Shown here: positions 16,624 through 47,517 of the stretch, in pieces
Layout of the letters: the number at the start of each line of letters is the position of its first letter
Position numbering within the stretch: the first letter of the stretch is position 1
Origin: a virus
Lineage: Duplodnaviria > Caudoviricetes
Virus record (IMG/VR): IMGVR_UViG_3300035696_000004
Span: 32,001-96,000 of that record
Length of the DNA: 64,000 bases
Direction: 5' to 3' (one strand)
Program-made: the position numbers and the translations under genes
The notes under the pieces: generated by a model
Database searches by the model: none
What the model saw: the letters and a program-made list of their open reading frames with translations, nothing else
What the model was told of the DNA's origin: nothing

Positions 16624-17115
16624 TCAGCCGTTGCCATTTTGTTGTTGTTTCTTTTTCTTTTGTCGAGCGTAGTATTCTTTCCAGGCCCGTTTCCCACATT
16701 CCCGACACTGTCGCTGACCGAAACGATTGGGTTCTTCAGGGAGTCGATGACCTCGCTTGCAGAACTCTTTCTGGCCTCTGACGTCTCGTGCGGCCTTTAA
16801 CCAGGAGTTCGGTTTATCCCAGCGAATATTCCCCGATGAATAAGGAGCCGTTTCATCAATTTTCCGTACGACCTCGCTCTTAAGCGGAGGACGAACAAAA
16901 ACCGTCAGGACTGTTCTCCAAATATACAAAGTGTGACGTTTTGCTTGGTGATGCAGTGAGAATGTTTCGACTTTCCCCACTACAATGGGTGCAAGGAACT
17001 TTCCCGCCAGCCTCCGACCTCGTGAATCAAGTCGTGGTAATGACCTCGCTCGTCCCAAATTGGAGATCTCGTAGGCGCCTTCGTACCCAGGGATAGGTCT
17101 CCAGACCTCAGTCAT
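16624..17115 (-). CDS. NUMOD4 domain protein with degenerate HNH and a CKRGH/CxxC motif
   Basis: EVWRPIPGYEGAYEISNLGRARS is NUMOD4; start re-assigned to ATG 17115. Confidence 0.75.
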   Translation of the reverse strand: MTEVWRPIPGYEGAYEISNLGRARSLPRLDSRGRRLAGKFLAPIVVGKVETFSLHHQAKRHTLYIWRTVLTVFVRPPLKSEVVRKIDETAPYSSGNIRWDKPNSWLKAARDVRGQKEFCKRGHRLPEEPNRFGQRQCRECGKRAWKEYYARQKKKKQQQNGNG

Positions 17116-43996: not shown

Positions 43997-44023
43997 CATA
44001 GAGGAGACCCGAAGGCCTCCTCT
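43997..44023 (-). terminator. imperfect hairpin with A-run (U-tract on the minus strand)
   Basis: AGAGGAG..CTCCTCT preceded by an A-rich run. Confidence 0.55.
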
Positions 44024-44032
44024 AGACTGAGA

Positions 44033-44455
44033 TCAGGAGTCGTCACTTTCCAGTTTTACGACACTTTTAGGAAAGGGTGGATCACCTTCATTCTTTATTT
44101 CGAATACACCTTTCAGTTCGTGCAGGGGTGATGCACCCAGGAGATGCAAAATGGTGTACCAATCACCATCTCGCTCATCCCCGTGAACTCGCCATCCTTC
44201 ACGGGTTCGAATAAAGCACGCAACCGTCTTCATGTCATCATCGCGGATGACTAAGTACCGCCGCCCAAATAGTTCAAACTGCTGAATGTTTCCGCCGAGC
44301 CGTTCTACTTGGTCCATCATGGCGATAAAGGCAGCCCGAGAATTCAACTTGATGCTCTCGATCCGCGCTGCATTCTTGAACGATTTGTAGATGACGTAGA
44401 TCAGCAGGGCGTCGCTGATCCCGAGACAAATCATCAGAAAGGATACGATATTCAT
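44033..44455 (-). CDS. protein with an N-terminal membrane anchor
   Basis: Hydrophobic N-terminus; RBS AAGGA. Confidence 0.65.
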   Translation of the reverse strand: MNIVSFLMICLGISDALLIYVIYKSFKNAARIESIKLNSRAAFIAMMDQVERLGGNIQQFELFGRRYLVIRDDDMKTVACFIRTREGWRVHGDERDGDWYTILHLLGASPLHELKGVFEIKNEGDPPFPKSVVKLESDDS

Positions 44456-44467
44456 TTTCCGTCCTTT

Positions 44468-45442
44468 TTAAGGGTGTGACCAGGCATTCAAATAGTCACG
44501 ATCGCGGAAGGGTTCCACCAAGAACGCTTCATTAAACTGCTCAGCCTGCAAGAGGCGTTCACGAATCCTCCAGAGTTCTTCGGCCTGACACGCATGACCT
44601 TTCTGACCAAAGACATCCGAGAAGCCGGTTGCTTTTTTCAGAATTTCTTGGAGTTCGGGGTTTTCGTAGATGTAGAGTATCCAAAGATGCTCGTAATACT
44701 TCCGGCATTCCTGGATATTGATCGGGCATTTTCCTTTGGCTTCTTGCCAAGAGAGTCCGGTCTGACCTCCTTCAAACACTTTGTAGCGCTGATAGAGTGT
44801 TTCGATCGACATATTCCCATACTTCTTGACCCGTGCGTAAAACGCGCTGAGTCGACGATCCCCTTTACTGCTGCACTCGAGATACGGTGCCTCACCAAAA
44901 CGCAACATGTCATTTCCTTTCTTTACTAAGCGATCCGCAATCGCCACAATTTGATCATCTGTTAAGTCGTCGACATCCATCCCCGGTGGCAAGATATGGA
45001 ATCGATCAACGTGGTGCGCTAGTAGAAAACCCCCTGCATCCCCGTCGCACATAGAGAGCGTGCGGTTAGGAATCGCTCTAAACCATTGGGTGAGGTTTAG
45101 AGGGTCTGCCCCAAATACGGCAACAGCGTTATAGCCCAGCCGTTTTAGCCGATTTGCATCGAATATCCCCTCCTGAACAAATAAGGGCTTTTTCGGATCG
45201 TACGTTTCAAGACCCCACATACCGAGCTCAACATTATGCCATCGATACCGAGAGAGGTAGGTGTAGTATTTCGCCAATTTAGGGTTGTCGGGATTGTGTT
45301 TTGGATAGGACGGGTTGTAAACCTGGAAACCAATCAATTGTCCCGATAGATTCCAAACCAAAAAGGTTGCATCCACATCCGTCACTGTCAATCCAGGGTA
45401 ATCGTCAGGATTGAGATGTCTGGAGAGGAGGTGTTGATGCAT
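44468..45442 (-). CDS. Toprim primase-like domain fused in frame to a NADAR-like domain
   Basis: VQEGIFDA and CDGDAGG Toprim motifs; C-terminal LSAFY..SIE.LYQ.YKVF..ENPEL..SDVFG; internal RBS and ATG at 44908. Confidence 0.7.
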   Translation of the reverse strand: MHQHLLSRHLNPDDYPGLTVTDVDATFLVWNLSGQLIGFQVYNPSYPKHNPDNPKLAKYYTYLSRYRWHNVELGMWGLETYDPKKPLFVQEGIFDANRLKRLGYNAVAVFGADPLNLTQWFRAIPNRTLSMCDGDAGGFLLAHHVDRFHILPPGMDVDDLTDDQIVAIADRLVKKGNDMLRFGEAPYLECSSKGDRRLSAFYARVKKYGNMSIETLYQRYKVFEGGQTGLSWQEAKGKCPINIQECRKYYEHLWILYIYENPELQEILKKATGFSDVFGQKGHACQAEELWRIRERLLQAEQFNEAFLVEPFRDRDYLNAWSHP

Positions 45443-45902
45443 GTTCGAGTTCTTTCTTTCTTTTGGCTCTGAGAGCCTGTCGGGTGATCGACCGGCAATA
45501 GGGGCAATATCGGCGCGTCTGATTCCCTTTAGGCATACGCAAACGATGTCCTCGTTTGCAATAGTCTTTGGGACAAGTCCGACCTAGTCGCCATGTCAGA
45601 TTATCGAGCGTGATCGGCTGGTCCAGATCAACGATGGTTCCGACCTCACCTTTCACGGGCGGCCTGACAAACGTCGACAACATCAGAGCATAGAGCATCT
45701 TGCGACGATAGACACCATCGATGCAGAGGCTTACACCAGGATAACCCTGGGTGTCATACGTCACCTTGAGTATTTTACCGGGGAGCATCTGCCCGTGTCG
45801 ACCGATGTGTTCCTTTGAACGGAAGTTCCCTAAGTTGGAGATTTCGTAAATTCCTTCACTCCCATATGCGGGTTTCCAGATTTCATTCATATCGAGTGTC
45901 AT
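45405..45902 (-). CDS. NUMOD4 protein with degenerate HNH and a CKRGH/CxxC motif
   Basis: EIWKPAYGSEGIYEISNLGNFRS; paralog of the 16624 ORF. Confidence 0.75.
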   Translation of the reverse strand: MTLDMNEIWKPAYGSEGIYEISNLGNFRSKEHIGRHGQMLPGKILKVTYDTQGYPGVSLCIDGVYRRKMLYALMLSTFVRPPVKGEVGTIVDLDQPITLDNLTWRLGRTCPKDYCKRGHRLRMPKGNQTRRYCPYCRSITRQALRAKRKKELEHASTPPLQTSQS

Positions 45903-45938
45903 TCAGTGTTCCAAATAAAAAGTATGGATGGGTCATAA

Positions 45939-45960
45939 GGAGCAGCCCGAAGGCTGCTCC
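45939..45960 (-). terminator. hairpin ending the ribozyme-containing interval
   Basis: GGAGCAGCC-CGAA-GGCTGCTCC (UUCG loop on the minus strand). Confidence 0.7.
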
Positions 45961-46243
45961 CGTAGTATCACGTAAAGAGGCACTCCATTGCATCGTATTC
46001 CTCCACTGGCCATCTGGATCGATACGATGCAACAGGCTGCTTCCTAAAGCCAAGCTATTCGGGTGCGGCAACGGACCCGATGGCCAGACTCGTGTAGAAA
46101 ACAACTTCTCGGGGATAGCGCCCACGAGCGTACGATTAAGTCAGAAGCGGTCTCGCTACAAACCACTCCGACACCTCTGATGATACATCGTGAGGTCTCA
46201 TTTGCCGCTGCCACCGCCGCATCTCGGGCAAAATGGCGCGCGG

Positions 46244-46309
46244 CGCTTGACGCCACCAGATACGATGGCGTTTCGTTCCTTTATACGTGGCCGGAACTCA
46301 TCAGAAGCG
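46244..46309 (-). ncRNA. type I hammerhead ribozyme
   Basis: Minus strand CGCUU-CUGAUGA-GUUCC(loop 13)GGAAC-GAAA-CGCCA(loop 10)UGGCG-UC-AAGCG: all core nucleotides and three perfect 5-bp stems; predicted cleavage after GUC, between 46249 and 46248. Confidence 0.9.
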
Positions 46310-46368
46310 TAGCCTTGTGTCTGTGCACATCATTGCGTAGCTGTGTAAAAAACCACTCGCCGGACCTA

Positions 46369-46710
46369 CTACCCACGATCAATTTCGATCGTGGACGGGA
46401 TCACGCCATTCCCTTGGCCGAGGTAGCGAACGAGAGCGAATTCGATCGACTTGAGCGGGTTCGGATCGGATTCATCGATCAGGATGCGGTATACTTGTCG
46501 TTTCGGGGTATCCGGTTCGGCGTCAGCGGTTTGCTCGTCGCCGGTGCCCAGGATGGTCTTGACGATTTCTTTGGCACGTTCTTTGATCGTGCTGGAAATC
46601 TGTTCGTCGAGGGCGCCGAGGTCGTCCGCGATGTTCCGGACCCTAATCAGGGCGTCCAGCTCGACTTCCAGGGCTTCGAATTTTTGTTTGAGGGGTACGT
46701 GTACTTGCAT
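46369..46710 (-). CDS. hypothetical protein with an N-terminal coiled coil
   Basis: Start re-assigned to MQVHVP (46710) after AAAGAAAG; immediately upstream of the ribozyme. Confidence 0.65.
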   Translation of the reverse strand: MQVHVPLKQKFEALEVELDALIRVRNIADDLGALDEQISSTIKERAKEIVKTILGTGDEQTADAEPDTPKRQVYRILIDESDPNPLKSIEFALVRYLGQGNGVIPSTIEIDRG

Positions 46711-46772
46711 GGGTGTTTTCTTTCTTTCGTTGTGTGGAGTTTGGACATAGTAAAGCCAACTGATGTAAAAAA

Positions 46773-47003
46773 TCAGTCCGCTTTGTAGGTGTGGTATGCA
46801 CAGATCGTACAATACCTTCCCTCACCTGCGACTTGGGCGTATTTGAAATCATGCCCTTGTTCACCGCATTCTCGCTGGAGTTCTTCCAGTTCGAAACGAT
46901 GTGTGTTCGCGAGCTCTTGGCGTTCTTTGTCTTGCTTTGCGCGGAGACACGATACTCTCACCGCCATGATGGTCCTATGCGTCATCAATGCCATTCCATC
47001 CAC
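46773..47003 (-). CDS. small protein with a C..GH...C.IC motif
   Basis: ECGEQGHDF...YCTIC; start possibly at 46994. Confidence 0.6.
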   Translation of the reverse strand: MDGMALMTHRTIMAVRVSCLRAKQDKERQELANTHRFELEELQRECGEQGHDFKYAQVAGEGRYCTICAYHTYKAD

Positions 47004-47209
47004 CCTTCCGGAGGTTGAGTAGGGATTGATAACCCTTCGCTGTGGGATTCCGAGGCAGGACTGGACGAGCTTTCGCTTTCCTTTTTCTTTTTGTCTGCTT
47101 CGATAAACTCACGTGCGACCTTCTGGTCAATTCCATGGGCATCAGCGAACTCTTTATCATGAGCGGCGATCTCCATGAACTTGTGCTGCTTTTCCGATTT
47201 GCTAGGCAT
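46985..47209 (-). CDS. small phage protein (MPSKS..Q..FM..AAH family)
   Basis: Motif recalled from many phages; RBS GGAG; start re-assigned. Confidence 0.7.
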   Translation of the reverse strand: MPSKSEKQHKFMEIAAHDKEFADAHGIDQKVAREFIEADKKKKESESSSSPASESHSEGLSIPTQPPEGWMEWH

Positions 47210-47223
47210 TTTCGTTCTCCTCG

Positions 47224-47517
47224 TTACGAGGTTAGAAAACCCAACTCCTCCACGGCAACCTTGAAGGACTTGTTCTTCTGGGGTTCCAACGGGAAGTGCC
47301 CCCAGCGCACCCATTGCGTCGTCACATACGGGTCTGTAATGACGGCGTCGGTATTCGGTACGGCTTTCGCCAGCACAGATGGATCATCCAGCCTCGATAC
47401 CAAACGAGGGACACCCGTCGTGCCCCATTGTTCGGCGACATCCAGACACTCGATTCCGGATTCGAGAATCGTTCCGTCCTCTTTCAGGAACGTCACGAAA
47501 ATAGTCGGGTCGCTCAT
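47224..47517 (-). CDS. hypothetical protein
   Basis: Co-directional ORF; ATGA overlap. Confidence 0.6.
   Translation of the reverse strand: MSDPTIFVTFLKEDGTILESGIECLDVAEQWGTTGVPRLVSRLDDPSVLAKAVPNTDAVITDPYVTTQWVRWGHFPLEPQKNKSFKVAVEELGFLTS

What the first reader, a model, noticed from the sequence alone, without database searches (positions are those of the whole stretch)
46244..46309. Complete type I hammerhead ribozyme inside an accessory-gene operon
Seen: on the transcribed (minus) strand, stem I CGCUU/AAGCG, core CUGAUGA, stem II GUUCC/GGAAC, GAAA, stem III CGCCA/UGGCG and a GUC cleavage triplet. Stem I can extend (GGC/GCC) across a bulge that could contact loop II. It lies about 60 nt after the stop of the 46369 ORF. 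Known: this is the canonical hammerhead consensus, and hammerheads do occur in phages and bacteria. Inference: self-cleavage separates the upstream mRNA (2',3'-cyclic phosphate end) from a downstream structured RNA. This would be a protein-independent RNA-processing module in a nucleus-forming jumbo phage; I cannot confirm from here that it is undescribed.
Basis: partly seen in the sequence, partly recalled or inferred. Interest (0 to 1): 0.9.

Follow-up and report, generated by a model that had tools for sequence, protein, structure and literature searches.

The report
Hammerhead ribozyme in a jumbo phage
A textbook self-cutting hammerhead RNA sits between two genes of an uncultured 220-kb phiKZ-like phage from peat and probably trims the front end of an unknown, strongly folded 310-base RNA; such ribozymes have been known in phages since 2011, so it is a good new example, not a new kind of thing.

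Summary
On the minus strand, 46309-46244 carries a complete type I hammerhead: stem I 5 bp, CUGAUGA, stem II 5 bp, GAAA, stem III 8 bp, GUC. The predicted cut lies between 46249 and 46248.

It is not chance. Simulated genomes gave 0.04 hits at 3 bp per stem and none at 4 bp. A covariance model built only from foreign type I hammerheads scores it 45.6 bits (E about 2e-11); the next hit in the 220-kb genome scores 11.8. Rfam's own models miss it, but they also miss five control phage type I hammerheads.

It is the only hammerhead in the genome. I found none in five phiKZ-like relatives.

Context refines the reading. The cut would release an ORF-free, strongly folded RNA of about 310 nt. That RNA ends at a UUCG hairpin plus TATG, one of 34 such units that punctuate this genome. 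The HNH gene behind it starts a new unit.

Five foreign contigs place a type I hammerhead at the 5' side of GOLLD RNA, the same logic. This scan has noted hammerheads in front of a phage tRNA and Y RNAs on other DNA.

Cleavage is untested, no homologues exist and no RNA data were found. Verdict: new member of a known kind, moderate interest.

The parts
46369..46812 (-). Upstream ORF (147 aa from TTG; 113 aa from the internal ATG at 46710). It is an orphan protein and the last coding gene of the transcription unit that holds the ribozyme.
   Evidence: No Pfam or PHROG family. No homologue among 5.8 billion proteins except itself. Called as a gene in an independent ENA assembly of the same phage.
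46310..46368 (-). 59-nt spacer between the stop codon and the hammerhead. It contains TTTTTTACAC (46352-46343), a possible phage promoter-like element, and the 5' tail GGCU (46314-46311), which can pair with loop II or with GCC 46237-35.
   Evidence: TTTTTACA occurs 9 times on the minus strand against 2.9 expected. Promoter function is only a conjecture.
46244..46309 (-). Complete type I hammerhead ribozyme: stem I 46309-05/46248-44; core 46304-46298; stem II 46297-93/46279-75; loop II 46292-80; GAAA 46274-71; stem III 46270-63/46258-51; U16.1 C17 46250-49.
46248..46249 (-). Predicted scissile phosphodiester between C17 (46249) and A1.1 (46248). The upstream product would end in a 2',3'-cyclic phosphate and the downstream RNA would start with a 5'-OH.
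   Evidence: Position follows from the motif. The chemistry is established hammerhead knowledge (PMC3088659) and was not tested here.
45962..46248 (-). Body of the released RNA (about 287 nt): ORF-free and strongly structured. It has a 5' hairpin (about 46244-46204) and a large multibranch domain (about 46190-45962). It contains UCAUCAGA (46183-46176), complementary to the ribozyme core, and CGCUUCUGA (46149-46141), a copy of the stem I 5' strand plus the start of the core.
   Evidence: MFE -118.9 kcal/mol against shuffles at -97.3 +/- 4.9, z -4.4; genome background z has mean -1.1, sd 1.3, with 2 of 47 windows below -4.2. With the terminator included, z is -4.8. No Rfam family at E up to 10. 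No protein family for any overlapping ORF. Repeat and anticore statistics are weak: 33/500 and 11/500 shuffles.
45938..45961 (-). GC-rich hairpin with a UUCG loop, the predicted 3' end of the released RNA. It is one of 34 similar hairpins in the genome that are followed by (U)UAUG.
45934..45937 (-). TATG directly after the hairpin, a candidate phiKZ-type late promoter start for the next unit (HNH, Toprim-NADAR and following genes).
   Evidence: The phiKZ late promoter consensus is 5'-TATG-3' with G as +1 (PMC4666361). Function in this phage is inferred.
45405..45902 (-). NUMOD4/HNH-type homing-endonuclease-like ORF (165 aa). It is the first gene after the hairpin and is not demonstrably linked to the ribozyme.
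   Evidence: Pfam NUMOD4 5.5e-13; PHROG HNH endonuclease 5e-15. tblastn hits to mycobacteriophage HNH genes. A paralogue at 17115-16696 has no ribozyme or leader.
44468..45442 (-). Toprim (primase-like) - NADAR fusion ORF. It is a downstream neighbour and context only.

Best explanation
This is a genuine, catalytically competent type I hammerhead ribozyme. It is transcribed on the minus strand near the 3' end of a transcription unit that runs from about 48983 to the hairpin at 45938. As soon as stem I is completed it folds and cuts itself between C46249 and A46248. The ribozyme body stays on the upstream mRNA as a compact 3' end with a 2',3'-cyclic phosphate. The downstream product is a discrete non-coding RNA of about 310 nt with a 5'-OH (46248 to about 45936). 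It has its own 5' hairpin and a large multibranch domain, and it ends at a phage terminator hairpin. The ribozyme's job is therefore to make the 5' end of this structured RNA without any host or phage nuclease. Type I hammerheads appear to do the same in front of GOLLD RNAs in other phages. Shown: the motif, its uniqueness, its statistics, the unusual foldedness of the downstream stretch and the hairpin family. Inferred: cleavage, co-transcription, termination at the hairpin, and any function of the released RNA.
For: The consensus is full, with canonical closing pairs G10.1-C11.1, A1.1-U2.1 and A15.1-U16.1. It is unique in the genome and far beyond chance. It scores 45.6 bits, E about 2e-11, with a model built from foreign type I hammerheads. 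The hammerhead fold equals the MFE of the 66-mer and is near-optimal in context. Downstream there are 340 nt without a credible ORF in a tightly packed genome, with z -4.4 to -4.8. The 3' hairpin plus TATG belongs to a 34-member genome-wide family, and TATG is the phiKZ late promoter. The next such hairpin upstream on this strand is at 49008-48983, so the ribozyme and the RNA are the tail of one unit. As a precedent found here, five independent contigs place a type I hammerhead 370-390 nt upstream of the conserved GOLLD domain on the same strand; two of them have a sigma70-like promoter directly before the ribozyme. Perreault et al. 2011 showed that prophage hammerheads cut polycistronic RNAs in vitro and in vivo.
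Against: There is no experiment and no RNA-seq run. No homologous locus exists anywhere, so neither the ribozyme nor the RNA has covariation support. Rfam models score it below threshold. The tertiary contact needed for fast cleavage at cellular Mg2+ is not convincing: the best loop II to tail pairing is 4 bp with one G-U, against a shuffle mean of 3.2. The U-tract after the hairpin is only UU, so read-through into the HNH gene is possible. About 4% of random genome windows fold as well as the released RNA.
Confidence: 0.55

Rival explanations
1. It is an active hammerhead, but only a generic mRNA-processing and insulation site. Cleavage uncouples the stability and translation of the upstream genes from what follows. 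The 310-nt stretch would be a structured untranslated tail with no function of its own.
For: This is the role proposed for most prophage hammerheads that flank genes (PMC3088659). Metagenome contigs show tandem type I hammerheads between small genes: L053 has seven in 3 kb, and L045 and L056 have three each. The released RNA has no homologues, and 2 of 47 random windows fold as well.
Against: A 340-nt ORF-free stretch with z -4.4 is unusual in this compact genome. A plain terminator right after the ORF would be enough to end the unit. The ribozyme sits at the start of the structured stretch, exactly as in the GOLLD cases.
Confidence: 0.25
2. The hammerhead and the structured stretch are the long 5' leader of the HNH endonuclease mRNA and belong to one mobile cassette. 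Cleavage would give the endonuclease message a 5'-OH end, functionally like the capping ribozyme of twin-ribozyme introns.
For: The HNH ORF starts 346 nt after the cut site on the same strand. The hairpin's U-tract is short, so read-through is plausible. The whole neighbourhood is accessory and absent from relatives.
Against: A member of the genome-wide hairpin plus TATG family lies between the RNA and the HNH gene, which marks a unit boundary. The paralogous HNH gene at 17115-16696 abuts its upstream ORF with no ribozyme or leader. HNH homologues elsewhere are too distant to test the link. There is no group I intron signal.
Confidence: 0.1
3. The motif is an inactive relic or a regulated ribozyme. 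The downstream anticore (UCAUCAGA, 46183-76) and the stem I copy (CGCUUCUGA, 46149-41) would trap or switch the fold, so cleavage is partial or conditional.
For: An 8-nt perfect complement to the catalytic core and a 9-nt copy of the stem I 5' strand plus the start of the core both lie within 110 nt downstream. Tertiary contacts are weak.
Against: Both features are statistically weak and were found post hoc: 11/500 and 33/500 shuffles. The ribozyme is complete 65 nt before the anticore is transcribed, so co-transcriptional cleavage should win. The core has no deviation at all, unlike the inactive hammerhead-like RNAs listed by Perreault et al..
Confidence: 0.08

Closest known systems
Type I hammerhead ribozymes of phages, prophages and metagenomes (Perreault et al. 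2011, PMC3088659; Rfam clan CL00010, RF00163)
   Same: It has an identical catalytic core, three helices, an open stem I and a GUC cleavage triplet. It lies in an intergenic position inside a co-directional phage gene block. Stem II (GUUCC/GGAAC) is identical to dozens of environmental phage hammerheads.
   Different: It is a single copy, not a tandem array. Loop II is long (13 nt) and stem III has 8 bp, which push it below the Rfam thresholds. There is no clear loop II to tail pseudoknot. The host genome is a phiKZ-like jumbo phage, for which I found no reported hammerhead and none in five relatives.
Hammerhead in front of GOLLD RNA (arrangement seen here in L001, L003, L022, L025 and L057)
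   Same: A type I hammerhead with the same stem II lies directly upstream of a large structured phage non-coding RNA on the same strand, so that cleavage would define the RNA's 5' end.
   Different: The RNA here is about 310 nt, has no similarity to GOLLD (no Rfam hit at E up to 10; no nhmmer hit), and is not next to tRNA genes.
Lariat-capping (GIR1) ribozyme of twin-ribozyme group I introns
   Same: A small ribozyme lies upstream of a homing-endonuclease gene and creates a new RNA 5' end.
   Different: The fold and the chemistry are different. There is no intron here. A terminator-like hairpin separates the ribozyme product from the HNH gene. This is a functional analogy only.
HF1/HF2 halovirus hammerhead at the 5' end of an early transcript (discussed in PMC3088659)
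   Same: It is a phage hammerhead whose cleavage site coincides with a mapped transcript 5' end.
   Different: There the downstream RNA is an mRNA (helicase operon), and that ribozyme is a core variant.

Membership tests
Hammerhead ribozyme (class consensus, Perreault et al. 2011) | Conserved core: C3 U4 G5 A6 N7 G8 A9, G12 A13 A14, the A15.1-U16.1 pair, and H17 (not G) at the cleavage site | tested here: met
   The sequence has CUGAUGA, GAAA and U-C, with no deviation.
Hammerhead ribozyme (class consensus, Perreault et al. 2011) | Three helices around the core with no mispair next to the core (N10.1-N11.1, N1.1-N2.1, A15.1-U16.1) | tested here: met
   Stems have 5, 5 and 8 bp. The closing pairs are G-C, A-U and A-U. 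The MFE of the 66-mer is this junction.
Hammerhead ribozyme, type I topology | Stem I is open, stems II and III are closed by loops, and the cleavage site is 3' of stem III | tested here: met
   Model R1 of type I hammerheads scores 45.6 bits, E about 2e-11, and it is the sole significant hit in 220 kb. Part of the score is by construction, because 10 of the 12 training sequences were retrieved through the same stem II.
Hammerhead ribozyme (natural, fast-cleaving) | Tertiary contact between loop II and stem I (a bulge or a tail pseudoknot) | tested here: inconclusive
   The best pairing is GGCU (46314-11) with GGCC (46292-89): 4 bp including one G-U, against a shuffle mean of 3.2. Other family members show 5-6 bp Watson-Crick pseudoknots. 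A stem I internal loop 5 bp from the core exists.
Rfam Hammerhead_1 (RF00163) covariance model | Score at or above the gathering threshold (34 bits) | tested here: not met
   It scores 12.6 bits, and RF00008 gives a partial 16.5 bits. As a control, none of five clear phage type I hammerheads (L001-L005) reached any Rfam hammerhead threshold, so this reflects the model's reach and not the motif.
Hammerhead ribozyme | Mg2+-dependent site-specific self-cleavage giving 2',3'-cyclic phosphate and 5'-OH ends | not testable with these tools
   No RNA run holds the locus. Only DNA contigs could be laid on it.
Hammerhead ribozyme | Conservation with compensatory changes at the homologous locus | not testable with these tools
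   No homologous locus was found in the phage, IMG/VR, metagenome or protein collections. The three runs that hold the locus are identical in sequence.
Group I intron carrying an HNH gene | Group I catalytic core, and flanking ORFs that are halves of one gene | tested here: not met
   There is no RF00028 signal in 44000-47400 even at E up to 10, while two real introns elsewhere in the genome score 76 and 67 bits. The upstream ORF has no zinc-finger or primase features.
GOLLD / ROOL and other known large phage ncRNAs | Match to the Rfam model | tested here: not met
   There is no hit at E up to 10 over the released RNA, and no nhmmer similarity to the GOLLD 5' halves.
phiKZ-like nucleus-forming phages (Chimalliviridae) | Chimallin shell protein | tested here: inconclusive
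   tblastn with phiKZ gp54 gave no hit at E up to 1e-3. The 747-aa major head protein matches phrog_3231 (9e-188) and is 53% identical to Burkholderia phage FLC9, and it also matches Ralstonia, Pseudomonas and Erwinia jumbo phages. Chimallins diverge fast, so absence by BLAST is weak evidence.

The most novel reading that the evidence does not exclude
The about 310-nt RNA released by the ribozyme is a new class of structured non-coding RNA of phiKZ-like jumbo phages. Hammerhead cleavage would then be a general, nuclease-independent route by which phages make the 5' ends of large structured RNAs. Examples would be GOLLD in five contigs here, the tRNA and Y RNA cases noted elsewhere in this scan, and this orphan RNA. 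In a phage that transcribes inside a protein shell lacking host RNases, a self-processing RNA would make particular sense.
Probability: 0.3. Interest if true: 0.65.

Novelty: new member of a known kind. Interest (0 to 1): 0.4.

Why it matters
The biological role of bacterial and phage hammerheads is still largely unknown 15 years after they were found in bulk. This locus gives a clean, single-copy case in which the product of cleavage is predictable: a 5'-OH RNA of about 310 nt bounded by a terminator. It lies in a phage lineage that brings its own transcription machinery and may shield its RNA synthesis from host enzymes. Together with the hammerhead-before-GOLLD arrangement seen in passing, it supports a testable general idea: phage hammerheads serve as built-in 5'-end maturases for structured non-coding RNAs. 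The ribozyme itself is ordinary. The value lies in the context and in the unknown RNA behind it.

Tried and rejected
**Rfam searches.** At gathering threshold the window and the rest of the genome gave no hammerhead and no other small ribozyme, only two group I introns outside the window. At permissive threshold there were only sub-threshold partial hammerhead hits and chance miRNA hits.

**Split-gene or intron hypothesis.** The downstream ORF matches a primase profile only from position 150, which suggested a split gene. I rejected this. The upstream ORF has no primase or zinc-finger features, there is no group I signal, and standalone Toprim proteins of 178-200 aa are common.

**Search for relatives to obtain covariation.**
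- blastn and tblastn against 50,697 phage records.
- IMG/VR with the three flanking proteins.
- The 5.8-billion protein set.
- Encoding contigs: the same phage without DNA, plus a non-syntenic phage.
- Contigs of three peat runs, all identical in sequence.

None gave a homologous locus.

**Pattern scans of IMG/VR, JGI metagenomes and GTDB genomes.** These returned many type I hammerheads with the same stem II, but none with related loops, stem III or downstream RNA.

**Link to the HNH gene.** The paralogue lacks any leader, and the homologues are too distant to test the link.

**Phage-encoded RNA repair.** There was no match to RtcB (PF01139) or PF09414. The PF09511 search was uninformative because its control matched nothing.

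**Hammerheads in phiKZ-like relatives.** None was found in FLC9, RP31, RsoM3USA, SURPRISE13 or phiKZ, by pattern or by model R1.

**Chimallin.** tblastn and pairwise BLAST found nothing. Pfam on large orphan ORFs found nothing either.

**RNA evidence.** No RNA run was listed.

**Anti-ribozyme and decoy idea.** The sequences are present but statistically weak.

**Alignment.** The first MAFFT alignment of six hammerheads (A1) was too poor to model and was replaced by A3.

Full report
**1. What is in the sequence**

Read on the minus strand, bases 46309 to 44 spell out a complete type I hammerhead:
- Stem I is CGCUU paired with AAGCG.
- The core is CUGAUGA.
- Stem II is GUUCC paired with GGAAC, closed by a 13-nt loop.
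- GAAA follows.
- Stem III has 8 bp.
- U-C follows, with the cleavage site after C46249.

The pairs next to the core are G10.1-C11.1, A1.1-U2.1 and A15.1-U16.1. These satisfy the acceptance rules of Perreault et al. 2011 (PMC3088659). The motif starts 59 nt after the stop codon of ORF 46812-46369.

**2. Is it more than chance?**

- My own descriptor asks for CUGANGA, GAAA, U-H and three helices. In the whole 219,772-bp genome, which is complete with terminal repeats, it found this site (5/5/8 bp) and one marginal 3/3/3 hit.
- It found no type II or III motif.
- Eighty simulated genomes with the same dinucleotide statistics gave 0.037 hits per genome at 3/3/3 bp and none at 4/4/4 bp. The best chance hit had 13 paired bases against 18 observed.
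- A covariance model (R1) built from 12 type I hammerheads of unrelated contigs scores the site 45.6 bits, E about 2e-11. The next hit in the genome scores 11.8 bits. Ten of the 12 training sequences were retrieved with a pattern that contains the same stem II, so part of that score is by construction. Stems I and III and the topology are independent.
- The 66-mer's minimum-free-energy fold is the hammerhead junction. With 80-170 nt of context, the enforced hammerhead fold lies within 0.2-2.3 kcal/mol of the optimum.

**3. Why Rfam is silent**

Rfam reports nothing at gathering thresholds. RF00163 gives 12.6 bits against a threshold of 34, and RF00008 aligns only to the core and stem II. Five clear type I hammerheads from IMG/VR contigs (L001-L005) also reach no Rfam hammerhead threshold. 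In the same kind of run, type III hammerheads, GOLLD, pistol and tRNAs were detected. The miss therefore reflects the short eukaryote-derived type I model, which penalises long loops. It is not a defect of the motif.

**4. The genome and the neighbourhood**

The phage is uncultured and comes from peat metagenomes. Its 747-aa major head protein matches the phiKZ-type family (phrog_3231, 9e-188). It is 53% identical to that of Burkholderia phage FLC9, and it also matches Ralstonia, Pseudomonas and Erwinia jumbo phages. I could not verify a chimallin gene, so 'nucleus-forming' remains an inference from kinship.

All genes from about 54 kb to 38 kb lie on the minus strand. In transcription order the locus reads:
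- orphan ORF 46812-46369;
- a 59-nt spacer;
- the hammerhead;
- 346 nt without a credible ORF;
- a NUMOD4/HNH endonuclease-like ORF, 45902-45405;
- a Toprim-NADAR ORF, 45442-44468;
- a 140-aa ORF;
- a BCS1-like AAA ATPase.

The Toprim ORF matches a primase profile only from position 150, which suggested a gene split by an intron. That idea failed:
- The upstream ORF has no primase features.
- There is no group I signal, although two real group I introns elsewhere in the genome are detected.
- Standalone Toprim proteins of this size are common.

**5. What the cut would release**

The stretch from 46248 to 45933 folds to -139.7 kcal/mol, against -112.3 +/- 5.7 for shuffles (z -4.8). Without the terminal hairpin, z is -4.4. 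Forty-seven random windows of the same length from this genome average -1.1 (sd 1.3), and two of them fall below -4.2. None of the overlapping ORFs has a protein family, and no Rfam family matches.

The stretch ends with a 10-bp GC-rich hairpin with a UUCG loop (45961-45938), followed at once by TATG. A scan of the genome found 34 such hairpin plus (U)UAUG units, mostly between genes (first hints). In phiKZ, TATG is the late promoter of the non-virion RNA polymerase, with G as the start site (PMC4666361). On this strand the previous unit boundary is at 49008-48983 and the next is at 38044-38017.

The ribozyme and the folded stretch are therefore the tail of one transcription unit, and the HNH gene is the head of the next. 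This argues that the released RNA is a discrete product of about 310 nt and not the leader of the HNH message. The short U-tract (UU) does leave room for read-through.

**6. Is it tied to the HNH gene?**

- The only paralogue in the genome (17115-16696, 34% identity) abuts its upstream ORF with no ribozyme or leader.
- The nearest HNH homologues elsewhere are below 46% identity over part of their length.
- The region is accessory. The Toprim gene is absent from four related phages, and the AAA ATPase is present in three of them at other places.

I see no evidence for a ribozyme-HNH cassette.

**7. Precedent found on the way**

A pattern holding the core plus this stem II retrieved 5 viral, 62 metagenomic and 5 genomic stretches. 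My descriptor calls a type I hammerhead in about half of them, several in tandem arrays.

In five independent contigs the hammerhead lies 370-390 nt upstream of the conserved GOLLD domain on the same strand: L001 (= L033), L003, L022, L025 and L057. That spacing fits the variable 5' half of that roughly 800-nt RNA, a size I give from memory. In L001 and L003 a sigma70-like promoter directly precedes the ribozyme. Two full-text searches found no paper that links GOLLD and hammerheads.

Earlier notes of this scan describe hammerheads fused to the 5' ends of a phage tRNA and of Y RNAs on other DNA. I did not test those notes. The window's arrangement follows the same logic with an unknown RNA.

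**8. Mechanism and its weak points**

Established hammerhead chemistry predicts a 2',3'-cyclic phosphate on the upstream fragment and a 5'-OH on the released RNA. The upstream fragment keeps stems II and III as a structured 3' end.

After cleavage, G46244 and the following bases can join a new 5' hairpin, which should disfavour re-ligation. I found no phage RtcB or PF09414 RNA ligase; the PF09511 search was uninformative.

The weak points are these:
- No convincing tertiary contact. The best loop II to 5'-tail pairing is 4 bp with one G-U, whereas relatives in the family show 5-6 bp pseudoknots.
- No comparative support at all.
- No RNA data.
- An 8-nt anticore and a 9-nt copy of the stem I strand lie downstream. 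They could modulate folding but are statistically weak.
- A T-rich TTTTTTACA element 40 nt upstream of the ribozyme is enriched on this strand (9 against 2.9 expected). It might be a promoter. If so, the ribozyme would trim a short leader, as in the GOLLD cases, instead of cutting a polycistronic RNA. The product would be the same.

**9. Novelty and verdict**

Hammerheads in phage and prophage intergenic regions have been known since 2011, with shown cleavage of polycistronic RNA. The class, the topology and the general role are therefore not new.

I found no report of one in a jumbo or phiKZ-like phage. I also found none in FLC9, RP31, RsoM3USA, SURPRISE13 or phiKZ, either by pattern or by model. 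This is a lineage-specific acquisition.

It is a new member of a known kind. The added interest comes from the orphan structured RNA it appears to release and from the wider pattern of hammerheads placed at the 5' ends of structured phage RNAs. I put the probability that it self-cleaves at about 0.85. I put the probability that its role is 5'-end formation of a discrete non-coding RNA at about 0.55.

Noticed in passing
L001:7084-6186 (-), L003:6571-5724 (-), L022:5026-4118 (-), L025:6436-7310 (+), L057:1642-2551 (+): In five independent viral or metagenome contigs, a complete type I hammerhead lies 370-390 nt upstream of the Rfam GOLLD match (172-202 bits) on the same strand. In L001 and L003 a sigma70-like promoter lies within about 10 nt before the ribozyme. 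This suggests that hammerhead cleavage makes the 5' end of GOLLD RNA. Two literature searches found no paper stating this.
   Followed up: partly
window 45961-45934 and 33 other sites in the genome (e.g. window 49008-48983, 38044-38017, 34011-33984, 22968-22931, 7473-7450): There is a genome-wide family of 34 GC-rich tetraloop hairpins directly followed by (U)UAUG(A/C)C, on both strands and mostly intergenic. They look like combined terminators and phiKZ-type TATG late promoters.
   Followed up: partly
window 42371, 37123, 22910 (minus-strand starts); five more copies outside the window: A conserved 24-nt motif, CTAGAATATTTCAAACCTATATTAC, occurs in eight copies, all on the minus strand. It is a candidate phage promoter, possibly the early class used by the virion RNA polymerase.
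   Followed up: no
L001-L005 and the window: Rfam's hammerhead models reach gathering for none of six clear type I phage hammerheads, while type III examples in L049 and L063 are found. This is a sensitivity gap for phage type I hammerheads with long loops.
   Followed up: yes
L053:763-3792 (-), L045:1250-2558 (+), L056:46-964 (-), L002:7472-7407 (-): Metagenome contigs carry tandem type I hammerheads: seven in 3 kb in L053, and three each in L045 and L056. L002 has a pistol ribozyme about 1 kb upstream of its hammerhead.
   Followed up: no
genome 166442-166804 and 216786-217164 (outside the window; L096:11242-11604, L099:2186-2564, minus strand): Rfam detects two group I introns (76 and 67 bits). 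Together with the hammerhead, the phage carries three ribozymes. No tRNA gene was found in the window (ARAGORN), and Rfam found none in the rest of the genome.
   Followed up: no
window 45405-45902 and 16696-17115 (minus strand): There are two NUMOD4/HNH paralogues (34% identity). In the one behind the ribozyme, the HNH_3-like segment appears to lack the usual histidine (IVDLDQ...DNLTW), while a C-terminal CxxxC..GH..N..CxxC segment resembles a zinc-bound His-Me finger.
   Followed up: partly
window 46183-46176 and 46149-46141 (minus strand): Inside the released RNA there is an 8-nt perfect complement of the ribozyme core (UCAUCAGA) and a 9-nt copy of the stem I 5' strand plus the start of the core (CGCUUCUGA). 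They occur in 11/500 and 33/500 shuffles, which is suggestive only.
   Followed up: partly
window 46352-46343 and 46771-46763 (minus strand): TTTTTTACA elements lie about 40 nt upstream of the hammerhead and about 60 nt upstream of the internal ATG of the orphan ORF. The octamer TTTTTACA occurs 9 times on the minus strand against 2.9 expected. It may be a promoter element; compare the phiKZ middle motif AAanTTACc.
   Followed up: no
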